Virus record (IMG/VR): IMGVR_UViG_3300035211_000056
Span: 1 to 59,880 of that record
Length of the DNA: 59,880 bases
Strand: one strand, 5' to 3'
Source of the DNA: a virus
Lineage: Duplodnaviria; Caudoviricetes
Shown here: one piece after another, positions 68-58,340 of the stretch
Layout of the letters: the number at the start of each line of letters is the position of its first letter
Position numbering within the stretch: position 1 is the stretch's first letter
Notes under the pieces: generated by a model
Seen by the model: only the letters and a program-made list of their open reading frames with translations
Databases searched by the model: none
Told to the model about the DNA's origin: nothing
Made by a program: the position numbers and the translations under genes

Positions 68-93
68 AAACTCGGGATAAATCTATTATAACA
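68..93 (-). promoter_or_regulatory. Extended -10 promoter TGTTATAAT with +1 motif ATCCCGAGT (duplicate of 58315-58340)
   Basis: Minus strand reads TGTTATAAT-AGATTT-ATCCCGAGTTT upstream of the baseplate J start. Confidence 0.65.
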
Positions 94-541: not shown

Positions 542-542
542 T

Positions 543-1061: not shown

Positions 1062-1062
1062 A

Positions 1063-2172: not shown

Positions 2173-3337
2173 TTAATATTTTAACGCTCCCTTTAATAAA
2201 TCCCGGGTCATACGGCTGATTTAAATAAAATAAATCATCGTATTTATCAATGTCTCCGTAATTATCATATGCAAGCAACAAGATACAAGTCGGCTGTACC
2301 GTTGTTGTTGTCACGTCTGCAAGGTCAAGGCTATCAAGATATGCTAATGTATTTGTCCTTAATGTATCAAGTTCAGCAATTACATCATTATCAAGGTCCT
2401 GCTTAATGTCTTCATATTGATCTTCTATTTCTGCCCTGGCAACCGCAAGCTCATCATCATTTGCAAATTCAATCTGTGATATAGTACCGTATGCCATAGC
2501 AAGAGCATTTACGTTTATGCAATCGTTTATTGCCTTAAATGTTTTTTTACGTTCAATATGGGCCATTGTGTCTTCATTAATTGTATCGTCTTCAGCACCA
2601 AAACTAAACATAGATTTCCATATTTCTAATTGAGATTTATTATCACTTGATGCAAAACTAAATGTATTAAATAGATTTTTTAAAGCAAGTCCTAATGTTG
2701 CTGGAGCTACAGCATAACTTGCAATTTTATCTTGAAAATCAAGTATCCCCTCATTAAGTTCATTTGCCTTATCCGCAACTTTGTATGTCAAAGATGCTGC
2801 ATTATCAAAAGTATCAAATACATCATTTAATTTAGTAGCCGTAAGTATTGCATTATCGCTGAAAACTGCGGTTAGTGAGTCAAAACCATCCTCAATCACG
2901 CCAAGAACTGTATCAATACCTCTTAAAATCAAAGGCTTTGTATTTTCGGAAGTATCAGGATATGACGGGTTGCTGGCCTGTTGAAATGTTACAGTAAATC
3001 CGGAAATACCGAATCTTTTATCCATTTCTTTTAATTCGCAACTTATTGCAGCACATAGTATTTCACCCTGGTACGGGTGTACCAGTTTTCCAAGACTAGG
3101 TTCTTCAAGCTTTTGTTTAAGCCTGTTTCTTTTTTCAAGTAGTGATGGTCCCTTAACATATAAATCAATTTGAAACTGATCTTCTGCCAAACCTAAAAAT
3201 TCAACCTCAGTCCTGTTTGAATCCGGGTATTGATGCGGAACTGTTTTCTGCCCGAACCTGATACTTGAGTTTTCTATCAGTACAGAAACTCCCTTATATT
3301 TTGCTTGTCTTAGTCTTCCTAATAGTGCTAAATCCAT
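2165..3337 (-). CDS. Mu gpN-like 'DNA circularisation' tail protein
   Basis: N-terminal A.YKGV, HQYP...VE.LG and GKLVHPYQG motifs; C-terminal LAYDNYGD..P.F. Confidence 0.85.
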   Translation of the reverse strand: MDLALLGRLRQAKYKGVSVLIENSSIRFGQKTVPHQYPDSNRTEVEFLGLAEDQFQIDLYVKGPSLLEKRNRLKQKLEEPSLGKLVHPYQGEILCAAISCELKEMDKRFGISGFTVTFQQASNPSYPDTSENTKPLILRGIDTVLGVIEDGFDSLTAVFSDNAILTATKLNDVFDTFDNAASLTYKVADKANELNEGILDFQDKIASYAVAPATLGLALKNLFNTFSFASSDNKSQLEIWKSMFSFGAEDDTINEDTMAHIERKKTFKAINDCINVNALAMAYGTISQIEFANDDELAVARAEIEDQYEDIKQDLDNDVIAELDTLRTNTLAYLDSLDLADVTTTTVQPTCILLLAYDNYGDIDKYDDLFYLNQPYDPGFIKGSVKILSE

Positions 3338-6139: not shown

Positions 6140-7720
6140 TTAAAAAGATGATGAAAAATTAGTTTTCAACGTGCTTAATACTTCTCTAAGCTGTGTAACA
6201 ATAGGCCATTCGTTACTTGATGTTATACGACCAAGCACAAGACTTATTGTTACGCTCATGTTATCAGTAAAATATTTTGATGCTTCTTTGCTTTTTGGTA
6301 CAAGGGCATAATCCCCAAGTGTTTCAAAATAATCAAGCATCTTAGAAACAAAATCAGCCTCGTCAGTCATGGAATAACCACGCACAAGGTTGCCGCTTGT
6401 TAATCTGCTCTGTGCATAATCTGATTTAATATTATTGAAAATATACTCTGCGCAAACAGACATTGTGTCTACTGTGTTTAAGTATTTCCATGTTGTGTCA
6501 ACGTTTCCGGCTGCATCTGTTTTGTATGTAGTCCTTATCTTGTCAAGGATAACCTGATTTCCTGCGTTGTTATTTCCCATTATACAACCGCCGGCAGTAA
6601 ATAAATCTGATTTTTCAGTATCCGTCCAACCTCTACCATCTGGTTGTATTGGAGATCCGAAAATAGGAGTATTTGCATAAGGTAATGAAGCAATATGCAT
6701 ACCGCCATAACCATCTAAATCACCTCTTATGCTTGCAGGGGTGAAATTAACAATATTTGCATCAGTCATCAATCTTACTGCACGAGTAGCAGCAACACGA
6801 GCCGCAGCAACAAAGTCAAGTTCAAGGTCTTCACCTCCATCGAAATTATCCTCTGCAACTTCTTTATTGCAAAGTATAACAAGATTTTTAGAATTTAAAG
6901 CATCTAGTACAGAAACCAAATCTGCTTTTGCGTCAGTTGCTTTTAGTATAGCAACACCGTCTTTGATTGCATTTGCAACATTAAATCTTGGATCAAGAAA
7001 ATCAGTTGCTAAGTCTGTTCCGTATTCATACGGATATGTCATTGTCTGATATCTTATTTTACTTACAACATCAAGCAGACTTGTTAATGTCGGGTCTGTT
7101 GCCCCTGCAGAAAAAGGAGTTAACGCAACAACCAAAGATCCAAAAACATAATCATCGCCTGATTTTGCAAGTCCGTCTATTTTTATAGTCGCTGTATTAA
7201 AAATTGTACCGCCGTTGTTAGCTTCTATATCAACGGAGCCGTCTTCATTATCTGTAACAGTAACAGGTAATTCAAGCAAATCAACAGCCGCAGCAAAATC
7301 AGCAGCCGTGTCTGTGGATGGGTCATCGTCAACTGCAATAGTAAGTTCAACGTCTTCACCCATTATGTTAAAATTCAAAGTTCCGTTTTTATCTGCGGTT
7401 CCTGAAAAAGTAACAGTTGCTTTTGATTTAGTAGCTCCGCCAGCGTCTTCCAAAGGAATAACGTCAACCCTCGGTAAATTAGGGCTTGGAGCCTGGTCAA
7501 ACACATCAAATACCGCATTAAGAGCAGCACCCAAAGCAGATTGATCATCAAACTTATCGTCTATGTCTGATCTTTCAATATCGGTATAAAGTGTTTTTTC
7601 AATTGCCGAACCTGTAGAAAGTTTCTGACCTATAACAAGTAATTTCTGAGTATCAACACCTGAAGGTAGGCTTGCAGATTGTTTTGTTATTGAAACATAT
7701 GGATTTTTTGCCTGTGACAT
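6140..7720 (-). CDS. Tail sheath protein (Mu gpL-like)
   Basis: LLVIGQKL, GATDP, and TTYKTDAAGNVD..WKYLNTVDT motifs. Confidence 0.9.
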   Translation of the reverse strand: MSQAKNPYVSITKQSASLPSGVDTQKLLVIGQKLSTGSAIEKTLYTDIERSDIDDKFDDQSALGAALNAVFDVFDQAPSPNLPRVDVIPLEDAGGATKSKATVTFSGTADKNGTLNFNIMGEDVELTIAVDDDPSTDTAADFAAAVDLLELPVTVTDNEDGSVDIEANNGGTIFNTATIKIDGLAKSGDDYVFGSLVVALTPFSAGATDPTLTSLLDVVSKIRYQTMTYPYEYGTDLATDFLDPRFNVANAIKDGVAILKATDAKADLVSVLDALNSKNLVILCNKEVAEDNFDGGEDLELDFVAAARVAATRAVRLMTDANIVNFTPASIRGDLDGYGGMHIASLPYANTPIFGSPIQPDGRGWTDTEKSDLFTAGGCIMGNNNAGNQVILDKIRTTYKTDAAGNVDTTWKYLNTVDTMSVCAEYIFNNIKSDYAQSRLTSGNLVRGYSMTDEADFVSKMLDYFETLGDYALVPKSKEASKYFTDNMSVTISLVLGRITSSNEWPIVTQLREVLSTLKTNFSSSF

Positions 7721-7774
7721 AATTAACCCTCCATTTTTCCGTGGGAGGATTAATTATTATGCTTAATTATAACA
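7720..7774 (-). promoter_or_regulatory. Sheath promoter TGTTATAAT and RBS-sequestering leader hairpin
   Basis: Promoter at 7774-7766. Leader TAATTAATCCTCC-CACGGAAAAAT-GGAGGGTTAATTA forms a 13-bp stem covering the SD and the A of ATG. Confidence 0.75.
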
Positions 7775-7809
7775 CAATTTATTAAATCAACACAATTTTT
7801 TTAATATAT

Positions 7810-8901
7810 TTATGAAAAGTCCTCATCTTCATTAAGTGTACCATTTACCTGCTTTTTGACTTCTTCGTAATCGTCAAATTCCATTTTAATACCTATCTGG
7901 AAATCCCTAAAAGCTCTTGTTTCACCTATTGGCACGGAATCAGCATTTGTTATATTAAATACATTTTCAAAATCAAATCTGTGGACATAATATGCCTTTG
8001 TGTATGATTCTCCGGCATCACCAGCGAATACAGCACAATATTTTATCCCTTCATCCAAACCGCTATCAAATTCAGCACCATGCAGACATTTTAATATATA
8101 CTTCCTTAATGTATAAATATAGTTTATGGCAGATCTAGGGGTGGTTTCATCCTGAGTAGGTATTAAAACATAGACGCTGAAATCTTCAACGCATTCGGTT
8201 TGCAAATCTTCTTTTGATTGCTTTTTATTTTTTGCATCAGAAAAAATATGACGGTCCGCACTTGCCAGGACATTACCCATGACAACAAATATTGTATACT
8301 TGGTTAATGGTTCTGACTGATTTTCAATATAGTCCATAATATCCTGTTCAGAGCTTAATCCGTCAATTCTTATATTGTTTAATACGGTCCCGGATAAAGA
8401 ATAAGGTTCAAGTTCATATTCAACATCATATTTTACCGTATTATCATCATTATCAATTGTTACCTCTTTTCTGCCAGAATATCCTCTTGATTCCAATAAA
8501 TAAAAAGTCCCGGTCGGCTCAACCGCAGACTGAATTGTTATTTTGTCATTTTCTGGAACTTCTATTAACGTTTTTTCTCCTGAGAAATCACCAACAAAAG
8601 TAACTGTTTTAGTTATGCCGTTTTCCTGTTCAAGTTCTGAATATGTCTGATCATGATCTTCTTCTGTTGTTAAAATCCATTCGTTATCATTATCTCCTGC
8701 CGTAACATCTGTTATTTCAAGTTTGCAATAAATACCTTTTATATTTGCATGAGTATCAGAAACTAAGTCCGCATCAACGGTTAATATAACCTCGTTCCCG
8801 TCAATAACGGCATTAGTAACATTAACAACGTCGCTGAAATCTTCTGTATATTTCGGCAGTTGTGATTGTATTTGAGCGATAATGTCTTCTAATTTTGCGA
8901 T
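7810..8901 (-). CDS. Neck/tail-terminator-like protein, extended to a probable ATC start (363 aa)
   Basis: Frame is open for 135 codons upstream of the TTG at 8496 with no ATG/GTG/TTG; SD GAGGT lies 5 nt before ATC; YYVHRFDFE C-terminal motif; precedes sheath. Confidence 0.7.
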   Translation of the reverse strand: MAKLEDIIAQIQSQLPKYTEDFSDVVNVTNAVIDGNEVILTVDADLVSDTHANIKGIYCKLEITDVTAGDNDNEWILTTEEDHDQTYSELEQENGITKTVTFVGDFSGEKTLIEVPENDKITIQSAVEPTGTFYLLESRGYSGRKEVTIDNDDNTVKYDVEYELEPYSLSGTVLNNIRIDGLSSEQDIMDYIENQSEPLTKYTIFVVMGNVLASADRHIFSDAKNKKQSKEDLQTECVEDFSVYVLIPTQDETTPRSAINYIYTLRKYILKCLHGAEFDSGLDEGIKYCAVFAGDAGESYTKAYYVHRFDFENVFNITNADSVPIGETRAFRDFQIGIKMEFDDYEEVKKQVNGTLNEDEDFS

Positions 8902-8914
8902 ATCACACCTCTTT

Positions 8915-9388
8915 TTATTTACCCTTAATTTGTCTATTAATTTCCTTTATGACAATATTTCTAAATTGCTGATGCATCCTGTTTACAGTATACCCAACTA
9001 ATTTACGTTTTGCCATTTTTCTTGTACCTTCTTCAAGATATTTTGCATAAGTTGTATCAATTCCTTTACTCGGATTTTTTATACCGAAAATCATCTTCTT
9101 ATAAGTAAAAACTTTAAAAGCAACTGCACCCCTTAATGTTCCAAAGATCCTTTGTGGATATTCCCCGGGTGCAGATGAAGTTCTTGTAAAAGAACCGCCG
9201 CCAGGTCTTTTGTGTGTGTATACCTTTCCTGATCGTCCTCCGAATTTTAATCCTTTCTGTAATGATTTTCTCATTACTCTTGCACCTTCAGTGTATCCTC
9301 TTTCTATTGCGTGTCTAACTTCCTGACCCATCATGTCTAACTTAAGAAATACTTTTTTATTTCCAGAGTCCTGTTTTATTCTTATCAT
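8915..9388 (-). CDS. HK97 gp10-like neck/tail completion protein
   Basis: SAPGEYP...G.L and YAKYLEEGTRKMAKR motifs. Confidence 0.85.
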   Translation of the reverse strand: MIRIKQDSGNKKVFLKLDMMGQEVRHAIERGYTEGARVMRKSLQKGLKFGGRSGKVYTHKRPGGGSFTRTSSAPGEYPQRIFGTLRGAVAFKVFTYKKMIFGIKNPSKGIDTTYAKYLEEGTRKMAKRKLVGYTVNRMHQQFRNIVIKEINRQIKGK

Positions 9389-9404
9389 GATTTTATCACT
9401 CCAT

Positions 9405-9785
9405 TCATGATTTAGACCCGTCCTTTGTATCGCTTCCGGTTTCAGTGCAATAAAGCAACATAAATTGACCTTCGTTTGCTGTTTCTATTGATTCTATTTT
9501 AAATCTATTATTATTAAACTTAACCCAATATTCACTTGTTAATCCTGATATCGTACGTATTTTAAATATATGAGTAATAGCACCATCAACAACAATGCCG
9601 GAAAATTTATCAATCCCGGATCGTGTTTCTATATCAGCCCATACAGTCCATACAGTTTCAAAACTATAAACAGATTGAGTATTTTTATATTCAACAAGTC
9701 TTTTTTGAATTTCTATTCTATTTGACATTGACCCGATGCATAATTTCTTTTTTTTAGAAGATATATATTTACTTCTGCAAGCCAT
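9405..9785 (-). CDS. Head-tail adaptor/head closure (SPP1 gp16-like)
   Basis: G.M..RI.IQ, TVWADI, THIFKIR and RFKIESI motifs. Confidence 0.85.
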   Translation of the reverse strand: MACRSKYISSKKKKLCIGSMSNRIEIQKRLVEYKNTQSVYSFETVWTVWADIETRSGIDKFSGIVVDGAITHIFKIRTISGLTSEYWVKFNNNRFKIESIETANEGQFMLLYCTETGSDTKDGSKS

Positions 9786-9786
9786 A

Positions 9787-10377
9787 TCAGTAATGACATC
9801 CAGTATTTATTATTCGGTTATTTTTATATATCAACTGACAAGTTAAGGGCAATAACATCTTTTCAAATTCATTTACGTCGACACAATCGCCTCTGTTTTC
9901 GTATAAATATCCAACATGTGTTTTTATTGCCATTAAAATATCAGCCGGTATGTCGGCTGCGGTAGTACCGTATCCTGCAACAAAAGTAATTTTAATTGCT
10001 TCGGGATGAATATCATAATCTGATTCTGGTAAATCAATTCCATCAATTTTTCCAAAAATACCGCCTTGAGCTAAATCATATTCTGTTGACGCAAGTAAAA
10101 CATAAGAACCATCGACCATATATTCTATCTTTATCAAAGAACTATAGGGACCTCTGCGTAATGTTAAATCTTGATGAATAGAATCCCTGCAATTTTCATA
10201 AGTAGCATTTAATAAATCGCGGTTCATTTGTTTTTCAGCCGTCTTAATAGCTGCGGTTATCATTGCCGCAATTAATGTATCTTCTGTAGACTGATCGACA
10301 CGTAAAAACAATTTCATATCAGATGTTGATATTAACGTAGCTGATGTTTTAGAAATTTGTTTATAGGTATCGTTCAT
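9787..10377 (-). CDS. Head-tail connector (gp6/phiE125 gp8-like)
   Basis: K.FLRVD..ED.LI..I.AA, F.AGYG...IP.DI..AI and YENRG motifs. Confidence 0.9.
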   Translation of the reverse strand: MNDTYKQISKTSATLISTSDMKLFLRVDQSTEDTLIAAMITAAIKTAEKQMNRDLLNATYENCRDSIHQDLTLRRGPYSSLIKIEYMVDGSYVLLASTEYDLAQGGIFGKIDGIDLPESDYDIHPEAIKITFVAGYGTTAADIPADILMAIKTHVGYLYENRGDCVDVNEFEKMLLPLTCQLIYKNNRIINTGCHY

Positions 10378-10395
10378 AATTCCGTCCTTAAACTC

Positions 10396-10476
10396 GAGAG
10401 CCGGAGTTACCTTACATCCCGAGTTTTTTGTAAAGTATTCCGGCTCTCAATATCTCAATCCTCCCACGGATTAAGA
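10396..10476 (-). ncRNA. Putative two-hairpin regulatory RNA in the capsid-operon 3' intergenic region
   Basis: Hairpin 1: UCUUAAUCC-GUGGGA-GGAUUGAGA. Hairpin 2: GAGAGCCGGA..UUUACA-AAAAACUCGGGA-UGUAAG..UCCGGCUCUC. Both loops are complementary to late-gene leaders. Confidence 0.6.
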
Positions 10477-10483
10477 AACTTTT

Positions 10484-10882
10484 TTATTCTGCGGTGTAAG
10501 TAGGCTGATGTGCAGCTCTACCTTTATAAGCAATACCAGAAGCGATAACATTTACGCTACCAGCTCCGGCAACTTTTGCCCTGACATATCTTTTGTTACC
10601 AACGTAACCGATATGTGCTGTTTGTGATCCTGTGCTTGAAATAACCAACGCACCTATAAGCTGAGAAGAATCAACTGTGTCTTCATCACTCATGTCTGAT
10701 TCATCACCTTCATAGATTGCGATAGTTATCGACGTTGCTGTTGTTATTTCAAAATTGAAACAAAAATCAAGTGCTTCATAACCTTTAGTATCAATAGTTT
10801 CACCAGTATGTGTATTGGTGTCCGCAATTTCCTGAGAATCTAAAGCACTATCAATGTCGGCTTTTGTCCTTATATCGTACAT
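10484..10882 (-). CDS. Capsid decoration/cement-like protein
   Basis: Directly after the major capsid gene; IDTKGY, D.SD and GY.G.KRYVR motifs. Confidence 0.65.
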   Translation of the reverse strand: MYDIRTKADIDSALDSQEIADTNTHTGETIDTKGYEALDFCFNFEITTATSITIAIYEGDESDMSDEDTVDSSQLIGALVISSTGSQTAHIGYVGNKRYVRAKVAGAGSVNVIASGIAYKGRAAHQPTYTAE

Positions 10883-10914
10883 AATTTATCTAACCTCCAT
10901 ATCCCTATTTTTTA

Positions 10915-12258
10915 TTAGGCTGCTGTTTTTAGCACTTTAAATGCTTCGGCTATGGCCACCTGACCGTTATTCCATTGTTTCCATGTGAATTCTACTATTC
11001 CGGTTCTCTTGCTTGTGTAATCATCTCTGATTAGAGAGATTCCAACAGCGTCAAGGATGTAATAACCATAGAAGAAATCACCTACCATAACAGAAAGAGA
11101 GCTCCCTGCAATATCTGCCATGTTTGGCATAATAACAAAAGGCTTACCTGCAATCTGGTTAGGCATTGTTTCACCGCCTGGTCTCCACAAGAAGTTACCG
11201 GCAGTATCTTTTTCAACCCTTAATGTATAAAGGGTGCTTTGGTTCATTGCAAAACGAGCGTTTGGAAGATATCCAGATTTAGGATATTTAAGAAGACCGA
11301 TAACGTCAGCAAGTCCAACAACACCACTTGATGCTGAATCGACTGTGTTATCTGTTATATCAGAATTAACCAAAATTCCTTCAGGCTGTTTCTTTCCAGT
11401 TCCTAAAAGAAAGCAATAGTTTTCTTTCTGTGCAAAACCCATTGCTGCATCTTTTGTAAGCTGAGAAATCATGTCAGTCATTGAGAAGTTTAGAGAATCC
11501 CAGGTTATTTTACTTGTCAAACCTAGCCTGTAGGCTGTAAGTGTTTCAAACCTGTAAGTTGATTCGTCTTCCTGATCTGATTCAGATTCACCCTCGTAAT
11601 ATGCAACTGGCAAAGTAGTCCTGATTGCAACGCTAAGAGACTTCACCTTTGACGCAAACTTTCTGCACAATGCACGTACGGGATCGATTTCTTCAACTTC
11701 TTCCATTATCTGGTTGTACACAGAGTCAGGGACAAGAAAACCACCGTCTGCATTACTGTCAGTCCTGAGATATTTTTTATCTGTAGGAATCTGCTGGTTG
11801 TTAAGAATTTCTCCGTTATTCATCTTTACGATTTCTTCCGGTTCTATTCCTTTCATTACATAGTCTTGCAGACCTTCGTATTCTTTACCAAAATGTTTTT
11901 TGTTTTGTTTTGCATCAGATGGCTTCATGTTGCTAAGATTAGCAATTTCTATTTCCATATCCTTGATGCGTTTTAGGTTTTCCTCACCGTTGTTATCCTT
12001 TATTTCCTTGATTGATTCTTCAAGATGTCGGATTTTTGTTTCGTGAGCGTCTTTTTCTGTTTGAATTTTCTGCAACGTCTTGTCTTTTTCATCAAGCGAT
12101 GCCTCTATTTTTTTTACCTGCTCTTTTGCTTCACTTGATAATGAATTAACCTTATCCTCATAAGTTTTTTTATCATTTTCAGTATTTTTGAGTTTATCCT
12201 GAAGATCCGCAAGTATTTTGTTCGATTCTTCCAATTGTTTTTTAAGTTCTTCGTTCAT
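10915..12258 (-). CDS. Major capsid protein, HK97 fold with long coiled-coil delta domain
   Basis: DGGFLVP, F.LGTG..QPEGI, KD..GNFLW.P and GDF..GY motifs; start moved to the ATG at 12258 behind SD GGAGGT. Confidence 0.95.
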   Translation of the reverse strand: MNEELKKQLEESNKILADLQDKLKNTENDKKTYEDKVNSLSSEAKEQVKKIEASLDEKDKTLQKIQTEKDAHETKIRHLEESIKEIKDNNGEENLKRIKDMEIEIANLSNMKPSDAKQNKKHFGKEYEGLQDYVMKGIEPEEIVKMNNGEILNNQQIPTDKKYLRTDSNADGGFLVPDSVYNQIMEEVEEIDPVRALCRKFASKVKSLSVAIRTTLPVAYYEGESESDQEDESTYRFETLTAYRLGLTSKITWDSLNFSMTDMISQLTKDAAMGFAQKENYCFLLGTGKKQPEGILVNSDITDNTVDSASSGVVGLADVIGLLKYPKSGYLPNARFAMNQSTLYTLRVEKDTAGNFLWRPGGETMPNQIAGKPFVIMPNMADIAGSSLSVMVGDFFYGYYILDAVGISLIRDDYTSKRTGIVEFTWKQWNNGQVAIAEAFKVLKTAA

Positions 12259-13348
12259 TAGACGAGACCTCCGATCCAAGTTTTTTTATTCTTTCAAAAA
12301 ACTCATTAAGACCGGCATCTCGCAGGCTGGCTTCTTGATCTTTTTCGTATCCGGTTTGTCCTTCCCGAACAAACTTTTTAATCTTTGATATAATTATATT
12401 ACACTTCTTTGTGGAAAGTCCACAAGTTTTTAAATAATTATCAATTTCTCTTAAATTCGTTATGTCTTCAAGCGATTTTTCAAAAGGGGAAACTATATCC
12501 TCATCATTAAATTCAGAACGCATTTTCGCATAGTATTTATTTATGTTGGTTATTACACCTTTTTTTTCTGAATCAGGAATATTAACTCCGCCTCTTGCTC
12601 CTGACATTGCGCCGGCCGCAGCAAATATAGCACGTGGAACAGCAACAAGTTTTCCATCTATAACATCGGCAATTGGTAGTTTATAAGACCCGAATTTGTC
12701 ATCACTTTCTTTATCATACCAAAGAAAAGCTTTTTTATATTTTGAACTTGGAGAATCTTCTGAATCAGTAAATGATCGTACCCTGCCCAGGGCAGAAGAT
12801 TTATCCCATTCTCTTTCTCTGTCTGCAAGTGGCAAATTCTGGTAAGGCACAACTGATTTCATATCTGTTATCATTGCTTCAGGATTTGCAGGAATAGTAA
12901 CAAGTGAAATTTCCCATAATGTTAATTTCTGCAAATAGCAAATGCCGGAATTTTCATCATAGTTATATTTTTCTATTGAATAACCTATAGACATAGACTT
13001 AACAGATCCGATTTTCATTTGAGGAACTACTCGTCCCCTGACAAAATCATCATCAAGAGGCATTTTTCCTTCTACATATAATCCTTTGTCATCTTCATAA
13101 CATGAAACAAATATACCGATAGGTTCTCCCCAGTTATGCTGCCACAGAAGCATAGGCATGAATTCTTTTAAAGAATCAAGAAACGCACCCCTGACAACAA
13201 CGTCGTCAACACGGTCTAGATTTCCAAAAGTAGAACCATATCCTTTAAATGTAAAATATTTAGTACCGTTTTCTTTTGTTTCTTTTGTCTCTATTATAGA
13301 AAAAGGTACTTTTATATGTTTTACTTCTGCGGATTTTCTATCCTTCAT
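12242..13348 (-). CDS. HK97-family prohead protease with extra C-terminal domain
   Basis: F.GYGSTFGNLD..D, MLLWQH...PIG, MSIGY and LWEISLVT.PAN motifs, followed by a YKLP.AD..DG.L.AVPRA..GARGG domain. Confidence 0.9.
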   Translation of the reverse strand: MKDRKSAEVKHIKVPFSIIETKETKENGTKYFTFKGYGSTFGNLDRVDDVVVRGAFLDSLKEFMPMLLWQHNWGEPIGIFVSCYEDDKGLYVEGKMPLDDDFVRGRVVPQMKIGSVKSMSIGYSIEKYNYDENSGICYLQKLTLWEISLVTIPANPEAMITDMKSVVPYQNLPLADREREWDKSSALGRVRSFTDSEDSPSSKYKKAFLWYDKESDDKFGSYKLPIADVIDGKLVAVPRAIFAAAGAMSGARGGVNIPDSEKKGVITNINKYYAKMRSEFNDEDIVSPFEKSLEDITNLREIDNYLKTCGLSTKKCNIIISKIKKFVREGQTGYEKDQEASLRDAGLNEFFERIKKLGSEVSSNERRT

Positions 13349-13349
13349 T

Positions 13350-14216
13350 TCAAACTCCTTTTGTCACTGTCATTATAGATTCACAGCGACAACGCATTAC
13401 ATTTTTAAGACTTGCTCCATGTCCGGTATCGCCAGGATACATAAGATGTTCACCCCAAACCGTAAATAAACTATTTTGAGGAACCTTTTGACCGTGTGCT
13501 TTTACGTGTTCCGGTCTGGTCTTTTGATCTAATGTTGCAATCCAGGTTTTGTCTAAAGACTGCCCTACTCTTGCAGCTTTTTCAGAAATATAACCGCCCA
13601 TTTCCTGCTTTGTTGCTTGATATATGTTTTGTGTTTCCGTTTCTGCAATTCCTGGTTTTCTGTTTTCTACTCTTTGAGTTAAGTTATCCATTATCAAACT
13701 GTTTCTTTCTTCAAGTGTAACAACTCTTTGAGCTTCATCCAATATGTCATCAACAAACTTAGTAGCTTGTTCAAAATTCCTTTCTGTAGTTGCCAATATT
13801 TCAGGTGATACAAATGTTTCACGTGAAACAATATAGTGGTCCATGTTTGACATTGTTTCATCAATTATTCTTCTTATCTCTGGCTTTGAGAATAACTGAT
13901 TTAAGTATTCATCTTTTTGGAAAAATTCGATAGCTTTTTGCGAACCACGTCTATAATTTATTGTGAGTAAATTATCAAGGTCCTGTTCAAAGGCCTGTAC
14001 AAGACTATTTGTAGAGCTTGCCCTTGTTACTGCCTGCACTGTTTTGGGCAATAGATTTATATCAACGTATCTTAAGACCTTATTAAAGAATTTATCAAGG
14101 TCCCTTAAAAACAAATATTCTACATATAATTTAGCAGCAAGTTCTTCAATTGCCTGTTCGTTTTCTGCGTTTGCAACCTGTTCTGTGTCTTGTTCATTTT
14201 CAATTAGTAATATCAT
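13350..14216 (-). CDS. Head morphogenesis/minor head protein (SPP1 gp7/Mu F-like)
   Basis: IAETET, KTW....D.KTR.EH..AHGQ, L.YPGD and CRC motifs. Confidence 0.85.
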   Translation of the reverse strand: MILLIENEQDTEQVANAENEQAIEELAAKLYVEYLFLRDLDKFFNKVLRYVDINLLPKTVQAVTRASSTNSLVQAFEQDLDNLLTINYRRGSQKAIEFFQKDEYLNQLFSKPEIRRIIDETMSNMDHYIVSRETFVSPEILATTERNFEQATKFVDDILDEAQRVVTLEERNSLIMDNLTQRVENRKPGIAETETQNIYQATKQEMGGYISEKAARVGQSLDKTWIATLDQKTRPEHVKAHGQKVPQNSLFTVWGEHLMYPGDTGHGASLKNVMRCRCESIMTVTKGV

Positions 14217-15616
14217 AAGTCATCACCGTCATGATAATATTTATTAACCCTTTCTGTTATTTGCTCGTCGGTGAAACCAGCTCTTTTTAATATTTTTGCA
14301 AGATTGTTTTTTGCCTGGTCCGTTACGGTATCAGAAGCACTAGACATGTCCATTCCAACCGGAACAAGATTATAGTTTTGATATAGCACACTATTTTCAG
14401 GACCCATCGGATCACTACCGAACATTTCCCTTATTTCGTTATTTGTATATACGCCTGTTTCTTTTTTGTTTTTAATTTCTTCAATGAACCTTGTTTGTAG
14501 AGCTGGTATTGAGTTCGGATCATATGTTATTTCTTCGTTATCTTTTAATATGCCTCTGCGTCTAAAACCTGCGGTCAATCCAGAAAAGATACTGTTAACG
14601 CAAGGAATAACAGCCATATCAAAAAGAACAAGTCTTGCAGTCTCGTAGTTTGAATACGTTTCTGTTCCCAAGGACCTTAGAGGTGATGGGATTTGGAATC
14701 TGTCATAAATAACTTTTCTTACAGCCTCGCTGTTACCGAGTGCTTCCATGTCTTTATTTGTTGACTGTATCGGCTTAAACTCTATGCCTTTTCCTTTACT
14801 TGCTATATATTTACCTGCATTTGCCGAACCTGCAAAATAATTTCTTGCATCAAGAATAAACTGGTCAACAACTTCTTGGTCTTCTGTGTCTATGCTGAAA
14901 ACTCCAGACAGATTTATACCGTTAAGAAGCATTGATAAATTGTGATTATTTCCTGAGTTTAATACTTCTATTTCGTATAAAATACTATTCAATATTGAGT
15001 TCGCTACATACCCGTTTGTTGTAGTGTAGTTAATAAAGTTATTTATAAAAAACATTTCTGCAAGATTATTTGCAAGATACCTGCCTGTTTTTTCATCAAA
15101 GACATATTCCTTTTCTAAATACTGCAATGCTGGTTGTGGGAATACCTGAAATCTATGATTAAGACCTTCACCCTGTGCAACTATTGTATCGGTTGGTGTT
15201 ACGTATAACTGAGACGGTGCAGATTTAACATTTACGTTACCAAAAGCAGAAATAAATAAATTTCCTGTTAATAGTTTATATATAATACAAGACTCAATAA
15301 ATTCGGGATAGTTTTGCATCTTGTTAGGATTTTTAAGAAGAGTTAATATGTCATGGTCATCGACAAAAGTATCTGCTCTTTTTATTAAAGGTTTTATCGT
15401 TTTTGCATTGTCTTTTATCGTATCAACGGAGTCCGCAACCGCAGAGTTTTTTTCATAAAGTTGCATTGCTAAAGCAGCAGTAACTTTGTACCAACCCTTT
15501 GTCTGCATATAACCAAGAAAATCACTTAAACGGAAAGTCCGTTTAGTTGTGTTAGTCTTTTTTTCTATATTATTTCTGTAAAATTTATTAAAAGGCCACA
15601 AATGAAGATACCCCAT
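14213..15616 (-). CDS. Portal protein (HK97 family)
   Basis: LL..PN, L.GN.F, G..NAGK, TYSN.E.A and T.NE.R motifs; follows terminase. Confidence 0.9.
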   Translation of the reverse strand: MGYLHLWPFNKFYRNNIEKKTNTTKRTFRLSDFLGYMQTKGWYKVTAALAMQLYEKNSAVADSVDTIKDNAKTIKPLIKRADTFVDDHDILTLLKNPNKMQNYPEFIESCIIYKLLTGNLFISAFGNVNVKSAPSQLYVTPTDTIVAQGEGLNHRFQVFPQPALQYLEKEYVFDEKTGRYLANNLAEMFFINNFINYTTTNGYVANSILNSILYEIEVLNSGNNHNLSMLLNGINLSGVFSIDTEDQEVVDQFILDARNYFAGSANAGKYIASKGKGIEFKPIQSTNKDMEALGNSEAVRKVIYDRFQIPSPLRSLGTETYSNYETARLVLFDMAVIPCVNSIFSGLTAGFRRRGILKDNEEITYDPNSIPALQTRFIEEIKNKKETGVYTNNEIREMFGSDPMGPENSVLYQNYNLVPVGMDMSSASDTVTDQAKNNLAKILKRAGFTDEQITERVNKYYHDGDDL

Positions 15617-15624
15617 ACAATTGT

Positions 15625-15649
15625 AACCCGGGATGCTTTAATTATAACA
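15625..15649 (-). promoter_or_regulatory. Extended -10 promoter with +1 motif ATCCCGGGT (portal/head operon)
   Basis: Minus strand reads TGTTATAAT-TAAAGC-ATCCCGGGTT. Confidence 0.65.
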
Positions 15650-15691
15650 TAAAATAAGTAATATAAAGCAAAAAAATAAATTTATGGGATA

Positions 15692-16942
15692 TCACACGAA
15701 ACCGTAATGGATTTTATCCACAACTTTTAAGTGTGCAAGCAGGAATGAATCGGCATGGTCAGGGGATCTATAACCTCTTTTTTTATAATTGTCCTTTGAT
15801 TCGACCTGGTATCTGCCGTATTTATCAACTTTATATTTTCTTGTAGTTAATTCTTTTTTAAGTCTGTCCGTAGGTGTAATATGCGATTCTCCTATTATTT
15901 TTTTAAATTCAAACCACATTTCGGATATTATATCTGCGTATTTATCCGGGAATTGAGATTTGCCTCCGAAATTAATTTCTTTTACGTTATATTTATGGTC
16001 CTTTAATGTGTCATATGTCCCGGCTCCTAGTCCTCCGATATCTATTTTTATCGGAACTTTTTTATCCTGCCCGACTTCATGCATAACTATCCTTGCAAGT
16101 TCGGTTGTTGATTTTTTGTTGTATTCTTTGGTCCAGACGTGATTAAGTCCTTTGATTTTGGTTATACTGCTTGAATCGTTGCCATACCTGGCACAGTCAA
16201 CCCCGTATTGAATTGCTCCGAGATTTTCTATTTCACGTCTTACAGCCTTGTTATATTCCAGCGACGATATAATGATGTCATCACCAATTTTTCTAAGTTC
16301 ACCCATGTATATATTCAAATAATCTTCAAAGCTTGCTTCCATAAGCCTGTTTATTTCTGCCTGTAGCTCCGGACTGACGTAAGGATTGTTTTTATAATTT
16401 GTGTATAAATAATAAGTATCATCCCTTTGTGGCAACATGAAATCATCCCATACCGGATCTGTTTCTTCATTAGGGTTTATCGTAAAAATAATTTTTGGTT
16501 TTTTATTTCTTAAAATAGTTGGAATTAATACGTCAAGCGATTCTTTTGAAACCGCTTCTGCCTGTTCTATCCATGCGATATTTACGTCGTCCATTGATTT
16601 AATTTTATCAAGGTTTCTATAAAGACCGCCAAAAATAAATGTAGTACCGGTATAAGGATTTTGTATATACCGGTCCGTAATTATATAAGGGAATTTATAT
16701 CGCTCTATCAGCGTCTTAAGCATCGAATGAACGGAATCGCTCAAAGAATTATATATTTCTCTTAAACATAATATTTTTAATTTTTCATTACACCCCAAAA
16801 TAAGTAAAAGCAAAGCAGTAGTCCATGACTTACCAGAACCTCGGCCGCCATAAATAAAATGAAAAACAAATTTATAAAATTCTGTTTTTACCCAGTCTTG
16901 ATAAACTTTTGGGAAAGATATTTTTAATCTGTTTTCTTGCAT
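15692..16942 (-). CDS. terL: Terminase large subunit (PBSX-like)
   Basis: Walker A GGRGSGKS, LCLRE, AWIEQAE, nuclease GVDCARYG.D and SPDHADS motifs. Confidence 0.95.
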   Translation of the reverse strand: MQENRLKISFPKVYQDWVKTEFYKFVFHFIYGGRGSGKSWTTALLLLILGCNEKLKILCLREIYNSLSDSVHSMLKTLIERYKFPYIITDRYIQNPYTGTTFIFGGLYRNLDKIKSMDDVNIAWIEQAEAVSKESLDVLIPTILRNKKPKIIFTINPNEETDPVWDDFMLPQRDDTYYLYTNYKNNPYVSPELQAEINRLMEASFEDYLNIYMGELRKIGDDIIISSLEYNKAVRREIENLGAIQYGVDCARYGNDSSSITKIKGLNHVWTKEYNKKSTTELARIVMHEVGQDKKVPIKIDIGGLGAGTYDTLKDHKYNVKEINFGGKSQFPDKYADIISEMWFEFKKIIGESHITPTDRLKKELTTRKYKVDKYGRYQVESKDNYKKRGYRSPDHADSFLLAHLKVVDKIHYGFV

Positions 16943-17352
16943 TTATTTTCGTCGTCCGTGCCGCCTATTTTGTCATCAGATTCGTTATCAATAAAACAAA
17001 TATCTATCCCTGTTATATTCGCATCAATATCAAGTTTCTTAACTGGCATTTCTCCTGCGGTGTCACGGACAGCACAGAAACTATTTAAATCTCCATTAAA
17101 AGCTTTTTCAATCTGCTTAGCAAGCATTGCCGATCTATATGTCATTTCTTCAATATCAATTTCCGGCATTATTTCTTTTAGCAGTTCTTTTTTGTCTTCA
17201 GGTAAATTGTGATTTAACATCATCTTAGCGAGTGATTCAAAGGTCTGCTTTTTGCGTTTTGCCTTGACTGATGCCTTCCCTCCTTTCTTGCCGAATTCCG
17301 TAGCTTGTTCATGGGTTAATTTAATTGGTCTTAAGTTCTGATTATTTGCCAT
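16924..17352 (-). CDS. terS: Terminase small subunit
   Basis: N.QNL.P and G.KGG.AS motifs; directly upstream of terL. Confidence 0.75.
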   Translation of the reverse strand: MANNQNLRPIKLTHEQATEFGKKGGKASVKAKRKKQTFESLAKMMLNHNLPEDKKELLKEIMPEIDIEEMTYRSAMLAKQIEKAFNGDLNSFCAVRDTAGEMPVKKLDIDANITGIDICFIDNESDDKIGGTDDENKCKKTD

Positions 17353-17361
17353 AGCTTGATA

Positions 17362-17391
17362 ATTATATCATTTTTTCATTTATTTTGGCAA
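17362..17391 (-). promoter_or_regulatory. Sigma70-type promoter for terS, near-leaderless
   Basis: TTGCCA-18 nt-TATAAT with TG extension; ATG only 9 nt after the -10 box; no SD. Confidence 0.6.
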
Positions 17392-18240
17392 GAGTGAGTT
17401 TTAAAACGGATGTGTGTTAATATGTCATTACTGTTTCAATTAATCAAGTAATGCTATTTTTAAATCAGGAAACAATAAATTATAACAACAAATAAAACCA
17501 AAAAGTCAATATTGATATTGTTATTATATATGTAAGTATAAAAACATATCAATATAAAATTAACATTTTTATAAAACCACATTTATCTTTATTGTTGATA
17601 TTATTGATTTTGTAAAGATATGTAAGAATGTCCAGAAAACAAACCATCCATAAAAAGAGATAAAAACATTTATAAAACAAGTGAATATTGATTTTGATAA
17701 TTATACGAAACATATTTTATTAATCATACCTTTACACAGAAAAGCATAGTTTGTAATGAAAAAGTTCCGATTTGTAACATAAAGAATCAATATAATAAAT
17801 ATAATAAATAAAATAAAATAAAATAAATATATATATAATAAGGACTTATATACATTGCATTATATGCTAAATTTAGCTGATTACATATCAAGTTACAAAT
17901 TACGTGCCGCATCCGTTTATATTTTTATTTTTGTTTATTAGTTTATATTAAACACAAATATATGGTAAAATATATCCGGTATAACGTGTGTAACTTTTGT
18001 AATTCGGCTGTAAAGCTTAACAGTAAAGGGTTTGATGGGTTACAGGGCTTGTAATACTTGGTATTCGGTGTAATGATTTTTTGATTTTATTTATTTTTTT
18101 TAATGACAAATCTGTATTTTTAATACAAAATAATTTTAGAAAGTTTTTAAAGTTGTAATCAGATAGTTTTTTTATTGTATTTAAAGAAATAGTGTTTAAA
18201 AAAAGATTATTAAAAAAAACAATTTGATGCATAACTTGAA
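17392..18240. other. AT-rich non-coding region with repeated TGTAA/TTACA and ATATTGAT motifs (candidate origin/pac region)
   Basis: About 850 bp without a credible ORF at the late/early divergence point; at least 12 TGTAA/TTACA and about 5 TATTGAT/ATCAATA copies. Confidence 0.5.
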
Positions 18241-50033: not shown

Positions 50034-51143
50034 TTATAAAACGAAAGTTGGTTTTTCTTCAAGTTCTGCTTTACCACTAATCCAAGTTGAAGTTGCTGCT
50101 ACTTCAGCCTCAGCTAAAATATCATCAGTATTAGGATTACAATATGCGCTATTACCTTTTCCTCCTCCATACCAACAATTTATAGGTTGATAGTAAGTTG
50201 CAATATTTTTATATATAATTCCAGATGTTGTTATAGTTTGAGTTGAACTATTACTATGAGTTCCTACAATCATTTGCCATATATACCAATTTCCTGACAA
50301 AGTTTTAGTAACTTCACCAATAGCTTTAGTAGTGACCCAACTATTAGTACCAGTAACAGTTAAAGTATATTGAGGATTAGGTATATAATGATTCATCAAG
50401 ATCCAGCTAGTCCCGTCACTTACAATAGTTACGGCTTCATGATAAAAATCTAAACTAGGATTACTAACTCCGTTTATTGTTCCAGTTATTTGTGAGGCTG
50501 TATTTGTGCTTACGTTTTTGATTATTGTTATTGGTCTGTTTGTATTATTAGACGCATCCGGCAATGTTATTGCCACTCCTGCGGTATCTATTAATACAGT
50601 TCTTACCCTGTCCGTATCTGTTATTACGTAATTTGTTGATTTAGTAACGGCAAGATTGTTTTTCGATTGATCTATTATAGTTGCAAACAATGTAAAATTA
50701 GCTAATAGTATAAAACGATCATTTGATGAATCATAGCCAATTTTTACATAATCGTATTGTGTTATATCTCCGGCAGAAAGTGCATTGCCGTCTTGGTCTA
50801 CAATCGCTTTTGCCGTTAGTCCATCAACAGCAACGGTGCTTGCACCGGTATTAGTATTACCAACCTGAAATATAAATGTCTGTCCGTTCATTAATGCTGT
50901 TGCACGTTTTTGGTTTCCGGTCGGCTCTAAAACGTAAGCATCAGCAGCACCGGAATCACCCCTGAAATTACCTTTTGCTACAAGATTTGAAACGGCTTTT
51001 GATTGCTGTTCTCTGTCTGTGTCGTCAAATACAAGTTCGGCATCTTCTATTAAATTTTTCTGCTCAAGGTTAAATCCGTTAAGGTCGGCAGCGACTAAAT
51101 CAGGAGTTGTTCCGTCTACAAATACGCTATCAGTTGCACCCAA
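50034..51143 (-). CDS. Tail fibre/receptor-binding protein 2 (TTG start)
   Basis: N-terminal ~150 aa is paralogous to 55362-56306 (DLNGF.LE.NLIE, NTGAST); ITLP.A..I.K module. Confidence 0.75.
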   Translation of the reverse strand: MGATDSVFVDGTTPDLVAADLNGFNLEQKNLIEDAELVFDDTDREQQSKAVSNLVAKGNFRGDSGAADAYVLEPTGNQKRATALMNGQTFIFQVGNTNTGASTVAVDGLTAKAIVDQDGNALSAGDITQYDYVKIGYDSSNDRFILLANFTLFATIIDQSKNNLAVTKSTNYVITDTDRVRTVLIDTAGVAITLPDASNNTNRPITIIKNVSTNTASQITGTINGVSNPSLDFYHEAVTIVSDGTSWILMNHYIPNPQYTLTVTGTNSWVTTKAIGEVTKTLSGNWYIWQMIVGTHSNSSTQTITTSGIIYKNIATYYQPINCWYGGGKGNSAYCNPNTDDILAEAEVAATSTWISGKAELEEKPTFVL

Positions 51144-51168: not shown

Positions 51169-51192
51169 ACTCGGGATATTTTAATTATAGCA
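51169..51192 (-). promoter_or_regulatory. Extended -10 promoter with +1 motif ATCCCGAGT (fibre/lysis operon)
   Basis: Minus strand reads TGCTATAAT-TAAAAT-ATCCCGAGT. Confidence 0.65.
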
Positions 51193-58295: not shown

Positions 58296-58340
58296 ATCCC
58301 TCGCTTAAAAATTCAAACTCGGGATAAATCTATTATAACA
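58296..58340 (-). promoter_or_regulatory. Baseplate J promoter, +1 motif and RBS-sequestering leader hairpin
   Basis: TGTTATAAT-N6-ATCCC GA GTTTGA ATTT TTAAGC GA GGGAT-ATATG. Confidence 0.65.

What the first reader, a model, noticed from the sequence alone, without database searches (positions are those of the whole stretch)
10396..10476. Candidate new system: a two-loop RNA after the capsid operon that can pair with five late-gene leaders
Seen: two hairpins on the minus strand. Loop 1 region matches the sheath leader (14/14). Loop 2, AAAAACUCGGGA(U), is complementary to the predicted 5' ends of the baseplate J (AUCCCGAGUUU, 11/11), fibre (AUCCCGAGU, 9/9), portal (AUCCCGGGUU, one G-U) and chaperone (one mismatch, one G-U) transcripts. 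In baseplate J and portal that 5' sequence otherwise pairs over the SD or start codon. The site has no -10 box at the corresponding position, so it is not just another promoter copy. Inference: a 3'UTR-derived or cis long-range RNA that unlocks or coordinates translation of virion genes, with feedback on its own operon. I know of no described equivalent but could not search.
Basis: partly seen in the sequence, partly recalled or inferred. Interest (0 to 1): 0.9.

Follow-up and report, generated by a model that had tools for sequence, protein, structure and literature searches.

The report
Phage hairpins complementary to late-gene leaders
Right after the capsid genes of an uncultured tailed phage sit two RNA hairpins whose exposed bases match the predicted first bases of the portal, sheath, baseplate and fibre messages, a match that changes in step in a related phage, so it may be an RNA switch linking head and tail production, though no RNA data exist yet.

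Summary
Two hairpins lie at 10453-10476 and 10394-10450 on the minus strand (-42.4 kcal/mol, z -5.3), between a 132-aa head gene and the head-tail adaptor gene. Hairpin 1 is 14/14 complementary to the sheath leader. Loop 2 is 11/11, 9/9 and 10 bp (one G-U) complementary to the predicted +1 bases of the baseplate, fibre-like and portal transcripts. The fifth target, the "chaperone", was not found.

These leaders are the best late-strand partners genome-wide. No random genomic segment of 1000 equalled the element.

In the only close relative reachable (G001, capsid 65% identical), the leaders carry a different 5' motif, CCCCAGG. Hairpin 1 there carries its complement. Cross-phage swaps fail.

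More distant relatives have plain intrinsic terminators at this site and no C-rich leaders.

Best reading, about 0.5: an attenuator/3'-end module of the head operon that also base-pairs with 5' ends of virion mRNAs. Those 5' ends otherwise fold onto their own ribosome-binding sites.

The RNA species, the transcription starts and the direction of control are all unshown. I found no RNA data and no described equivalent.

The parts
10453..10476 (-). Hairpin 1 (hp1): 9-bp stem, loop GUGGGA, SD-like GGGAGGA
   Evidence: fold. Two compensatory pair changes and one broken pair against G001 hp1, read.
10457..10470 (-). Seed 1: 14 nt complementary to the sheath leader
   Evidence: 14/14, longest complement on the late strand; -29.5, rank 1; net -7.0 kcal/mol.
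10394..10450 (-). Hairpin 2 (hp2): 12-bp GC-rich lower stem, 9-bp AU-rich upper stem, 12-nt apical loop. Positional homologue of the terminator in relatives.
   Evidence: No canonical terminator was called here: only UUU follows the stem.
10416..10428 (-). Seed 2 (loop 2, AAAAACUCGGGA plus U): complementary to the 5' ends of the baseplate, fibre-like and portal leaders
10484..10882 (-). Upstream gene, 132 aa (phrog_5707, unknown function), last gene before the element
9787..10377 (-). Downstream gene, head-tail adaptor. No promoter-like site lies between it and the element.
15625..15649 (-). Portal promoter TGTTATAAT (15649..15641) and predicted 5' end AUCCCGGGUU (15634..15625)
   Evidence: net -6.8.
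7738..7774 (-). Sheath promoter TGTTATAAT (7774..7766) and leader target AAUCCUCCCACGGA (7751..7738). The leader folds into a 14-bp stem that holds the SD GGAGGG.
58315..58340 (-). Baseplate-wedge promoter TGTTATAAT and predicted 5' end AUCCCGAGUUU. The same sequence occurs at 68..93.
   Evidence: net -8.9.
51169..51192 (-). Promoter TGCTATAAT and predicted 5' end AUCCCGAGU of the fibre-like gene 50034..51143
   Evidence: net -4.5.

Best explanation
The element is the 3'-end module of the portal-to-capsid (head) operon: a leaky terminator or 3' hairpin pair. In this phage lineage it has also acquired two exposed G-rich seeds, the hp1 loop with its 3' arm and the hp2 apical loop. These seeds base-pair with the C-rich extreme 5' ends of the mRNAs for portal, sheath, baseplate wedge and a fibre-like protein.

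Those 5' ends are predicted to start 7 nt after strong TGnTATAAT promoters and to fold back on their own Shine-Dalgarno or start region. The element could act as the 3' UTR of the abundant head mRNA, as a 3' fragment derived from it, or in cis for the portal mRNA. Pairing with it would compete with that fold-back. The most likely effect is to free the ribosome-binding site (anti-antisense activation) and/or to cap the 5' end. Either way, synthesis of tail, baseplate and fibre proteins would be tied to head-operon output.

Shown: the structures as predictions, the complementarity, its specificity, its co-variation in one relative, and the positional homology to terminators. Inferred: the transcription starts, the existence and form of the RNA, pairing in vivo, and the direction of the effect.
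For: Structure: (z -5.3).

Complementarity.

Genome-wide rank: the top 3 windows for loop 2 are the 3 leaders, and the top window for hp1 is the sheath leader. In the reciprocal scan the element is the best late-strand partner for 3 of 4 window leaders (third for portal). It is the best partner for 3 of 5 G001 leaders (second for portal, third for sheath).

Random-segment control: 0 of 1000 for the window and 2 of 1000 for G001. The sampling included the leaders' own antisense strand.

Co-variation. All 5 G001 late promoters are followed by (A)UCCCCAGG(U/C), or by CCUCCCUGGGUAA at the baseplate. G001 hp1 carries UCUUUACCUGGGGAGG. Four of the 5 leaders are among the 10 best of about 8,900 windows for G001 hp1, and no leader reaches the top 10 in any cross-phage swap.

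Three of the 4 substitutions inside the duplexes keep pairing through G-U: A to G in the window portal leader, and C to U plus A to G in the G001 baseplate leader. The fourth, in the G001 sheath leader, gives an A-C mismatch. Individual leaders also extend the duplex in their own way: G001 sheath 13/14, G001 baseplate 13 bp, window sheath 14/14.

Rough accessibility-corrected energies are favourable for 9 of 9 cognate pairs (-1.1 to -12.3 kcal/mol) and for 4 of 18 non-cognate pairs.

In 8 of 9 leaders the 5' C-run is paired in the minimum-energy fold, enclosing the SD or start.

At the same site L006/7/8/12 and L009/11 carry classical A-tract/stem/U-tract terminators, and G001 hp2 is followed by UUUU.
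Against: No RNA evidence of any kind, and no transcription start has been mapped.

Only two genomes carry the system, so co-variation rests on a single comparison.

The three window leaders share one motif and are not independent.

Part of the signal is generic G-rich against C-rich (SD against anti-SD) pairing. In one search the swap of the window element against the G001 leaders was reached by only 2 of 1000 random segments, and the reverse swap by 24 of 1000.

An 11-bp helix inside a 12-nt hairpin loop is sterically strained unless the weak upper stem opens. This was not modelled.

The seed sits in different places in the two phages: hp2 loop plus hp1 in the window, hp1 only in G001.

The window portal leader's 5' end is unpaired in its minimum-energy fold.

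In G001, a 13-nt complement joins the hp2 3' arm and U-tract to the baseplate promoter's -10 and spacer. Most of that target should not be transcribed from that promoter, which hints at DNA-level relatedness.

Terminase, lysis and three other consensus promoters on the late strand lack any match.
Confidence: 0.5

Rival explanations
1. A plain attenuator, terminator or processing hairpin (an RNase III-type or 3'-stabilising structure) that sets the ratio of capsid to connector proteins. On this reading the matches to the leaders are non-functional: relics of sequence exchange between promoter/leader regions and this intergenic region, or side effects of SD-like and anti-SD-like composition.
For: Relatives carry simple intrinsic terminators at exactly this site. 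G001 hp2 has a U-tract. There is no promoter between the element and the adaptor gene, so leaky termination is needed anyway. The swapped pairs are also better than random. The G001 13-mer reaches into the untranscribed -10 and spacer.
Against: 14/14 and 11/11 matches that land exactly on predicted leaders, and rank first genome-wide in both directions, are hard to get by composition alone (0 of 1000). A relic would not be expected to track a changed leader motif in a second phage whose intergenic sequence has otherwise diverged. The window hp2 lacks a U-tract and was not called a terminator.
Confidence: 0.2
2. A DNA-level motif: one phage DNA-binding regulator, for example a repressor or roadblock sitting at +1 to +11 of the virion-gene promoters, recognises ATCCCGAG (window) or CCCCAGG (G001) in either orientation. 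The element simply holds one more, inverted, site.
For: The motif has a fixed position next to the -10 in 3 window promoters and 4-5 G001 promoters. The cores fit degenerate palindromes: CYCGRG in the window, where 6 of 9 sites lie in leaders or the element, and CCWGG in G001. A protein and its sites co-evolving would also produce a coordinated motif switch. The G001 13-mer covers promoter DNA.
Against: The window sheath match is a different 14-mer, 15 nt further from the -10. The G001 baseplate variant differs from the core at two central positions yet keeps 13 pairs through G-U wobble, which DNA recognition would not reward. Each leader extends the match differently. The core-to-(-10) spacing varies by 2 nt. 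The inverted copy lies in a hairpin loop with no promoter, where a DNA site has no obvious role. No candidate regulator was identified (not searched for).
Confidence: 0.15
3. An SD-like decoy: the G-rich loops (GGGAGGA, CGGGAUGU) bind 30S subunits as a STAB-SD-type stabiliser for the downstream adaptor mRNA. Alternatively they bind a GGA-binding protein of the CsrA type. Complementarity to the anti-SD-like leaders is then secondary.
For: Both phages keep a perfect SD-like run in hp1, plus the conserved block (A)UUGAGAUA after it. GGA lies in both window loops, about 45 nt apart. The STAB-SD and CsrA motif rules are recalled from memory and were not tested in any call.
Against: This does not explain 8 or more further matched bases beyond the SD core, or the specificity in the swaps. 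The G001 hp2 loop (GUAAAA) has no GGA.
Confidence: 0.07

Closest known systems
icaR mRNA 5'-3' UTR pairing in Staphylococcus aureus (PMC3868564; abstract read)
   Same: A motif in the 3' untranslated end of a message pairs with the ribosome-binding region of a 5' leader. The pairing is of SD/anti-SD type (UCCCCUG against SD). The organism uses strong SDs.
   Different: In icaR the C-rich motif is in the 3' UTR, blocks the SD of the same mRNA and creates an RNase III substrate, so it represses. Here the polarity is reversed: the C-rich run is at the 5' end and the G-rich seed is in the 3' element. At least four different mRNAs are matched, and the predicted effect is to release an SD that the leader itself sequesters.
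Anti-antisense translational activation by small RNAs (DsrA-rpoS: PMC3675490, search listing and start of abstract only. RNAIII-hla, RprA and GlmZ are recalled.)
   Same: A leader arm that sequesters the SD is captured by a complementary RNA, which opens the ribosome-binding site.
   Different: Those are stand-alone host sRNAs, mostly Hfq-dependent, each with its own promoter. Here the seeds are embedded in the hairpins at the end of a phage structural operon, and the targets share a 5'-terminal tag.
3'UTR- or terminator-derived regulatory RNAs that touch phage biology (CisR acting on CTXphi cep mRNA, PMC13250501; StxS from the Stx phage late transcript, PMC7547250; both seen as search listing and start of abstract only). 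Terminator loops of sRNAs needed for regulation (PMC11979758; abstract read).
   Same: Regulatory RNA function resides in the 3' end or terminator hairpin of a longer transcript. Terminator loops can be functional.
   Different: CisR is host-encoded and represses. StxS is a short 5' product of the late promoter that acts on host rpoS. The section heading in PMC11979758 says the terminator loops probably act without base-pairing. None of these links a phage head operon to the leaders of the other virion operons.
P1/P7 c4 and P4 CI antisense RNAs (recalled from memory; no call)
   Same: Phage-encoded, processed from a longer transcript. They have two loops or segments complementary to sites in a leader that controls ribosome access or elongation.
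   Different: They are immunity repressors acting on one downstream target in the same early operon. They are not activators or coordinators of several late structural operons.
Intrinsic terminator or attenuator after the major capsid gene cluster (relatives L006/7/8/12 and L009/11; T7 Tphi recalled)
   Same: Same genomic position, with a GC-rich stem. G001 hp2 has a U-tract. Read-through is needed for the downstream connector genes.
   Different: The window hp2 is a 57-nt composite stem with a 12-nt loop and only UUU behind it, and it was not called by the scan. The extra hp1 and the leader-complementary seeds have no counterpart in the plain terminators.

Membership tests
Rho-independent (intrinsic) terminator | GC-rich stem directly followed by a U-rich tract (at least 5 U in 8) | tested here: not met
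   The window hp2 is followed by GAGUUUAAGG. The consensus scan lists no terminator at 10394-10476. G001 hp2 is followed by UUUUCAUU, a partial fit.
Rho-independent (intrinsic) terminator | Short loop (3-8 nt) on a continuous stem | tested here: not met
   12-nt loop and two stem segments with bulges. In G001 the loop is 6 nt.
Rho-independent (intrinsic) terminator | Position at an operon end, homologous to terminators in relatives | tested here: met
   All 6 of the more distant relative loci folded (L006, L007, L008, L012, L009, L011) have classical terminators between the p132 and adaptor genes.
3'UTR-derived base-pairing sRNA | Lies at the 3' end of an mRNA and shares its terminal hairpin | tested here: met
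   It starts 7 nt after the stop codon of the last head gene. There is no consensus extended -10 promoter between the portal promoter and the element. A weak 10-of-12 site at 12393-12422 is at chance level.
3'UTR-derived base-pairing sRNA | A discrete stable RNA species is detected | not testable with these tools
   No RNA run holds the sequence.
3'UTR-derived base-pairing sRNA | Accessible seed complementary to several targets, maintained in relatives | tested here: met
   This rests on one relative only.
Anti-antisense activator (DsrA-rpoS type) | The target leader forms an inhibitory hairpin that holds the SD or start | tested here: met
   Predicted in 8 of 9 leaders. The window portal leader is the exception. 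In silico only.
Anti-antisense activator (DsrA-rpoS type) | The regulator pairs with the inhibitory (anti-SD) arm, not with the SD | tested here: met
   All duplexes start at leader nt 1-6, which is the C-rich arm.
Anti-antisense activator (DsrA-rpoS type) | Translation rises when the regulator is present | not testable with these tools
   Needs reporters or toeprints.
icaR-type 5'-3' UTR interaction | The 3' UTR motif pairs with the SD of the same mRNA and represses it | tested here: not met
   The element is G-rich and matches the anti-SD arm, not the SD. Three of the four matched leaders belong to other transcription units.
Any curated Rfam family | Score at or above the family's gathering threshold | tested here: not met
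   0 matches in the whole window. Around the element the best match was 18.7 bits against a threshold of 80, E 0.23.

The most novel reading that the evidence does not exclude
A phage RNA 'address code'. All virion-module mRNAs (head, tail sheath, baseplate, fibre) carry a short phage-specific 5'-terminal tag that locks their own ribosome-binding site. A hub at the 3' end of the head-operon mRNA carries the matching keys. Head-operon output then licenses translation and/or stability of the other structural operons. Tag and key co-evolve between related phages, as seen with CCCGAG/CUCGGG against CCCCAGG/CCUGGGG. Such a code could also keep co-infecting relatives from cross-activating each other.
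Probability: 0.3. Interest if true: 0.85.

Novelty: new variant of a known kind. Interest (0 to 1): 0.7.

Why it matters
Timing and stoichiometry of phage structural genes are usually explained by transcription: late activators, antiterminators and leaky terminators. A base-pairing hub embedded in the terminator region of the head operon, addressing the 5' ends of the other virion operons, would be a post-transcriptional layer of late-gene coordination. It would also be a natural example of a one-to-many anti-antisense regulator with co-evolving specificity. The idea can be tested directly with leader-reporter fusions and compensatory seed swaps. It would give a small, portable RNA switch for phage engineering. 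If it is false, the case still documents how terminator hairpins and SD-locking leaders can share sequence.

Tried and rejected
Close relatives.
- Megablast of 9000-13000 against the GenBank phage collection: no match.
- tblastn with the capsid protein: 389 records, all below 60% identity.
- Capsid-profile scans of viral, genome and metagenome contigs gave only L005-L013. The first single-protein scan gave two 28% hits.
- The adaptor-profile scan gave 80 loci. Of the 14 I folded upstream of the adaptor gene, none showed a comparable two-hairpin element.
- The second genome-contig scan gave only 24-32% hits, plus one 26-residue hit.

DNA pattern scans.
- GGGAGG(N0-1)TTGAGATA: 112 or more stretches. 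None of the 112 encodes a relative.
- TATAAT-N6-ATCCCGAG: 69 stretches, one per contig. None of the 69 encodes a relative of 8 late proteins.

RNA evidence.
- No RNA holder is listed for 7600-15700.
- Laying four DNA runs (contigs) showed variant strains that change the sheath leader. The bin 10310-10580 had no cover in X2 and X3 and only 1.41 in X4, so strain-level co-variation could not be tested. The small-share runs say nothing about habitat.

Rfam: nothing.

Energy calculations.
- RNAcofold cannot represent loop-to-end (kissing) pairs, so it gave about 0 for loop 2.
- A first opening-energy calculation let the duplex spread over the whole hairpin and was meaningless for the window. It was redone with fixed seeds.

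Other leads.
- The 'chaperone' target was not found.
- Early-strand targets: none stood out.
- A 12-codon ORF after the SD-like run in hp1 is not conserved in G001 (read) and was rejected.
- A possible internal promoter at 12393-12422 is a chance-level 10/12 match without a C-rich leader.

Full report
CONTEXT. The window is a complete-looking virus record of 59,880 nt, labelled linear, with a CheckV estimate of 100% and 32.5% G+C. Its two ends are diverged copies of each other. Positions 1-1633 correspond to 58248-59880, and the first 127 nt are identical. The unit genome is therefore about 58.2 kb, and the baseplate leader at 68-93 is the same locus as the one at 58315-58340.

The virion genes lie on the minus strand, in this order:
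- a 142-aa ORF of unknown function, possibly the small terminase by its position (16924-17352), and large terminase (15692-16942)
- portal (14213-15616)
- head morphogenesis (13350-14216)
- protease (12242-13348)
- major capsid protein (10915-12279)
- a 132-aa protein of unknown function (10484-10882)
- the element
- head-tail adaptor (9787-10377), head closure and neck genes
- sheath (6140-7720)
- across the record's end, baseplate wedge (56974-58293) and two fibre-like genes (55362-56306 and 50034-51143).

THE OBSERVATION. Folding 10370-10500 on the minus strand gives two hairpins. hp1 lies at 10476..10453. hp2 lies at 10450..10394 and has the 12-nt loop AAAAACUCGGGA. The energy is -42.4 kcal/mol against -25.4 +/- 3.2 for shuffles (z -5.3, 0 of 200 as good).

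An exact-match scan of the 106-nt intergenic region against the whole late strand gave, as its longest complement, 14/14 between hp1 (10470..10457) and the sheath leader (7751..7738). It also gave 11/11 with the baseplate leader and 9/9 with the fibre-like leader. The portal leader pairs over 10 bp with one G-U.

Three of these targets begin exactly 7 nt after a TGnTATAAT box, and the sheath target lies 15 nt after one. The inverted copy inside hp2 has no such box beside it.

IS IT MORE THAN CHANCE? 11-mers by themselves are not rare: there are three other exact 11-mer complements on the late strand, and the 11-mer with up to two mismatches occurs at chance frequency. The placement is what stands out.

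- In a duplex-energy scan of about 11,700 late-strand windows, the three best partners of loop 2 are the portal, baseplate and fibre-like leaders (-20.3, -18.6, -17.8; next best -14.5). The best partner of hp1 is the sheath leader (-29.5; next best -21.8).
- In the reverse direction, the element is the best partner of three of the four leaders and the third best for the portal leader.
- None of 1000 random genomic segments of equal length reached the element's summed energy with the four leaders.

The three ATCCCGRG leaders are copies of one motif. The independent events are therefore loop 2 with that motif, and hp1 with the sheath leader.

RELATIVES. The capsid protein has relatives of 45-72% identity, but only some of them sit in collections from which DNA can be fetched.

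The closest reachable relative is G001 (locus L005, a 44,416-nt record, capsid 65% identical). It has the same two-hairpin layout at the same site. Its hp2 is a good terminator-like stem followed by UUUU, with a 6-nt loop that lacks any seed. Its hp1 reads AUCUUUACCUGGGGAGGUUGAGAU. Compared with the window, hp1 has two compensatory pair changes and one broken pair (read).

G001 has five TGnTATAAT promoters in front of virion genes: portal, sheath, baseplate wedge, fibre 1 and fibre-like 2. Their predicted 5' ends are AUCCCCCAGGUG, AUCCCCAGGCAAAGA, GCCUCCCUGGGUAA, AUUCCCCAGGUG and ACCCCAGGUA. None has the window's CCCGAG motif. All are complementary to G001 hp1: 8-9 contiguous pairs for three of them, 13/14 for the sheath leader, and 13 pairs including two G-U for the baseplate leader (and read from the sequences).

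Four of the five leaders rank among the ten best of about 8,900 windows for G001 hp1 (ranks 2, 4, 6, 8). In the swaps (G001 hp1 against the window; window loop 2 or hp1 against G001) no leader reaches the top ten.

With random-segment controls, the cognate G001 set was reached by 2 of 1000. The sampling included the leaders' own antisense strand. The swaps are weaker, at -15.9 and -12.3 kcal/mol per leader against -20.3 and -22.8 for cognate sets. They are still above background (2 and 24 of 1000). Part of the signal is therefore generic G-rich against C-rich pairing.

A rough accessibility-corrected energy (duplex plus opening costs, fixed seeds) is favourable for 9 of 9 cognate pairs and for 4 of 18 non-cognate pairs.

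The next clades (L006/7/8/12 and L009/11, capsid 47-53% identical) have classical intrinsic terminators at this site. In the first group a TGATATAAT promoter follows, and in L012, the longest of those loci, the leaders have no C-rich 5' ends. More distant adaptor-gene relatives show nothing comparable (14 of 80 loci examined).

THE LEADERS. In 8 of 9 predicted leaders the 5'-terminal C-run is paired in the minimum-energy fold, so that the SD or start codon is enclosed. Examples:
- window sheath: a 14-bp stem holding GGAGGG
- window baseplate: AUCCC paired with GGGAU of the SD
- G001 sheath: a 13-bp stem holding GGGGG.

The window portal leader is the exception. Its annotated ATG has no SD, and the real start may lie a few codons downstream with the run GGGG serving as SD; that is my inference. 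The element's seeds are better complements of the C-rich arms than the leaders' own SD arms are.

WHAT IT MOST LIKELY IS. Position, relatives and the absence of a promoter before the adaptor gene argue that hp1-hp2 marks the 3' end of the head-operon mRNA and lets some transcription through. That makes it an attenuator or a 3'-stabilising or processing hairpin.

On top of that, this lineage keeps seeds that match the 5' tags of the other virion operons. I read it as an RNA-RNA pairing hub, probably acting by the anti-antisense principle, with confidence about 0.5. That pairing occurs at all, its form (3' fragment, whole mRNA, or in cis for the portal mRNA) and its sign are all inferred.

Points that favour RNA-level over DNA-level recognition:
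- G-U-compatible substitutions in 3 of 4 cases
- leader-specific extensions of the duplex
- placement in loops
- the link to SD-locking hairpins.

Points against:
- only two genomes
- steric strain of an 11-bp helix in a 12-nt loop
- different seed locations in the two phages
- an unexplained 13-nt complement in G001 between the hp2 3' arm and the -10/spacer of the baseplate promoter.

COMPARISON WITH KNOWN SYSTEMS. No Rfam family matches.

The nearest mechanisms are listed here with what I saw of each.
- The 5'-3' UTR pairing of icaR mRNA (PMC3868564; abstract read). It has the opposite polarity and sign, and acts within a single mRNA.
- Anti-antisense activators such as DsrA (PMC3675490; listing only).
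- 3'-end-derived sRNAs connected with phages, CisR and StxS (PMC13250501 and PMC7547250; listings only).
- Terminator-loop-dependent regulation (PMC11979758; abstract read).
- The P1 c4 and P4 CI antisense RNAs (recalled from memory).

Three full-text searches listed no phage system in which a head-operon 3' element addresses the leaders of other virion operons. A transcriptome paper on phage 201phi2-1 (PMC11512511; passages read) notes that phage sRNAs are still largely unexplored. Supplementary files were not consulted.

VERDICT. The function is plausible but unproven. It is a new variant of a known kind (a 3'-end-embedded base-pairing regulator), with interest 0.7.

Noticed in passing
window 1-1633 and 58248-59880: The two ends of the record are diverged copies of the same region. 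The first 127 nt are identical, and 847 of 1633 positions differ at fixed offset, probably partly through indels. This looks like an assembly of a circularly permuted genome of about 58.2 kb that ran on into a second strain's allele.
   Followed up: partly
L005 8450-8462 and G001rc 18699-18711: In G001 the 3' arm of hp2 plus its U-tract (GGCCUUUUCAUUA) is 13/13 complementary to the end of the -10 box, the spacer and the first 3 nt of the baseplate promoter region. Most of that target should not be transcribed from that promoter. Unexplained; it may point to DNA-level relatedness between promoter regions and the element.
   Followed up: partly
window 2199-2210 (-): ACCCGGGAU, at the junction of ORFs 2165-3337 and 1063-2172, is 9/9 complementary to the portal leader's 5' end. 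It is that leader's best late-strand partner (-19.2). The core CCCGGG is a palindrome, so the weight of this match is uncertain.
   Followed up: no
L006 1744-1851 (the same in L007, L008, L012): In this clade the post-capsid terminator is immediately followed by a TGATATAAT promoter for the adaptor gene. The window and G001 have no promoter there and must rely on read-through.
   Followed up: partly
L009 1525-1606 and L011 1949-2030: Upstream of the terminator there is a small hairpin, AAGGA-CUCCCC-UCCUU, with a C-rich (anti-SD-like) loop. This is the opposite polarity to the G-rich hp1 loops of the window and G001.
   Followed up: no
window 17353-18016: A 660-nt, very AT-rich, gene-free region between the late and early gene blocks. 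It has runs of TTTTA repeats and two full sigma-70-type promoters facing the terminase genes (17487 and 17370, minus strand). Probably the regulatory or origin region.
   Followed up: no
L127 7538-7580 (+), G001 early strand: The first codons of an early 272-aa ORF contain AAAAUCCCCAGGACAAAGA, a near copy of the sheath leader's 5' end with a one-base insertion. It did not rank among the best hp1 partners on that strand.
   Followed up: partly
window 7720-7765: Contigs of two other runs (X3, X4) show related strains with substitutions and small indels in the sheath promoter-leader, for example at 7740, 7761-7765 and an insertion after 7737. The matching part of the element was not covered, so co-variation at strain level is open.
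   Followed up: partly
window, 9 CYCGRG sites (71, 2202, 9164, 10393, 10418, 15627, 22071, 51170, 58318): The count is close to my own back-of-envelope expectation of about 10 from base composition (not from a call). Six of the 9 sites lie in the late leaders or in the element.
   Followed up: yes
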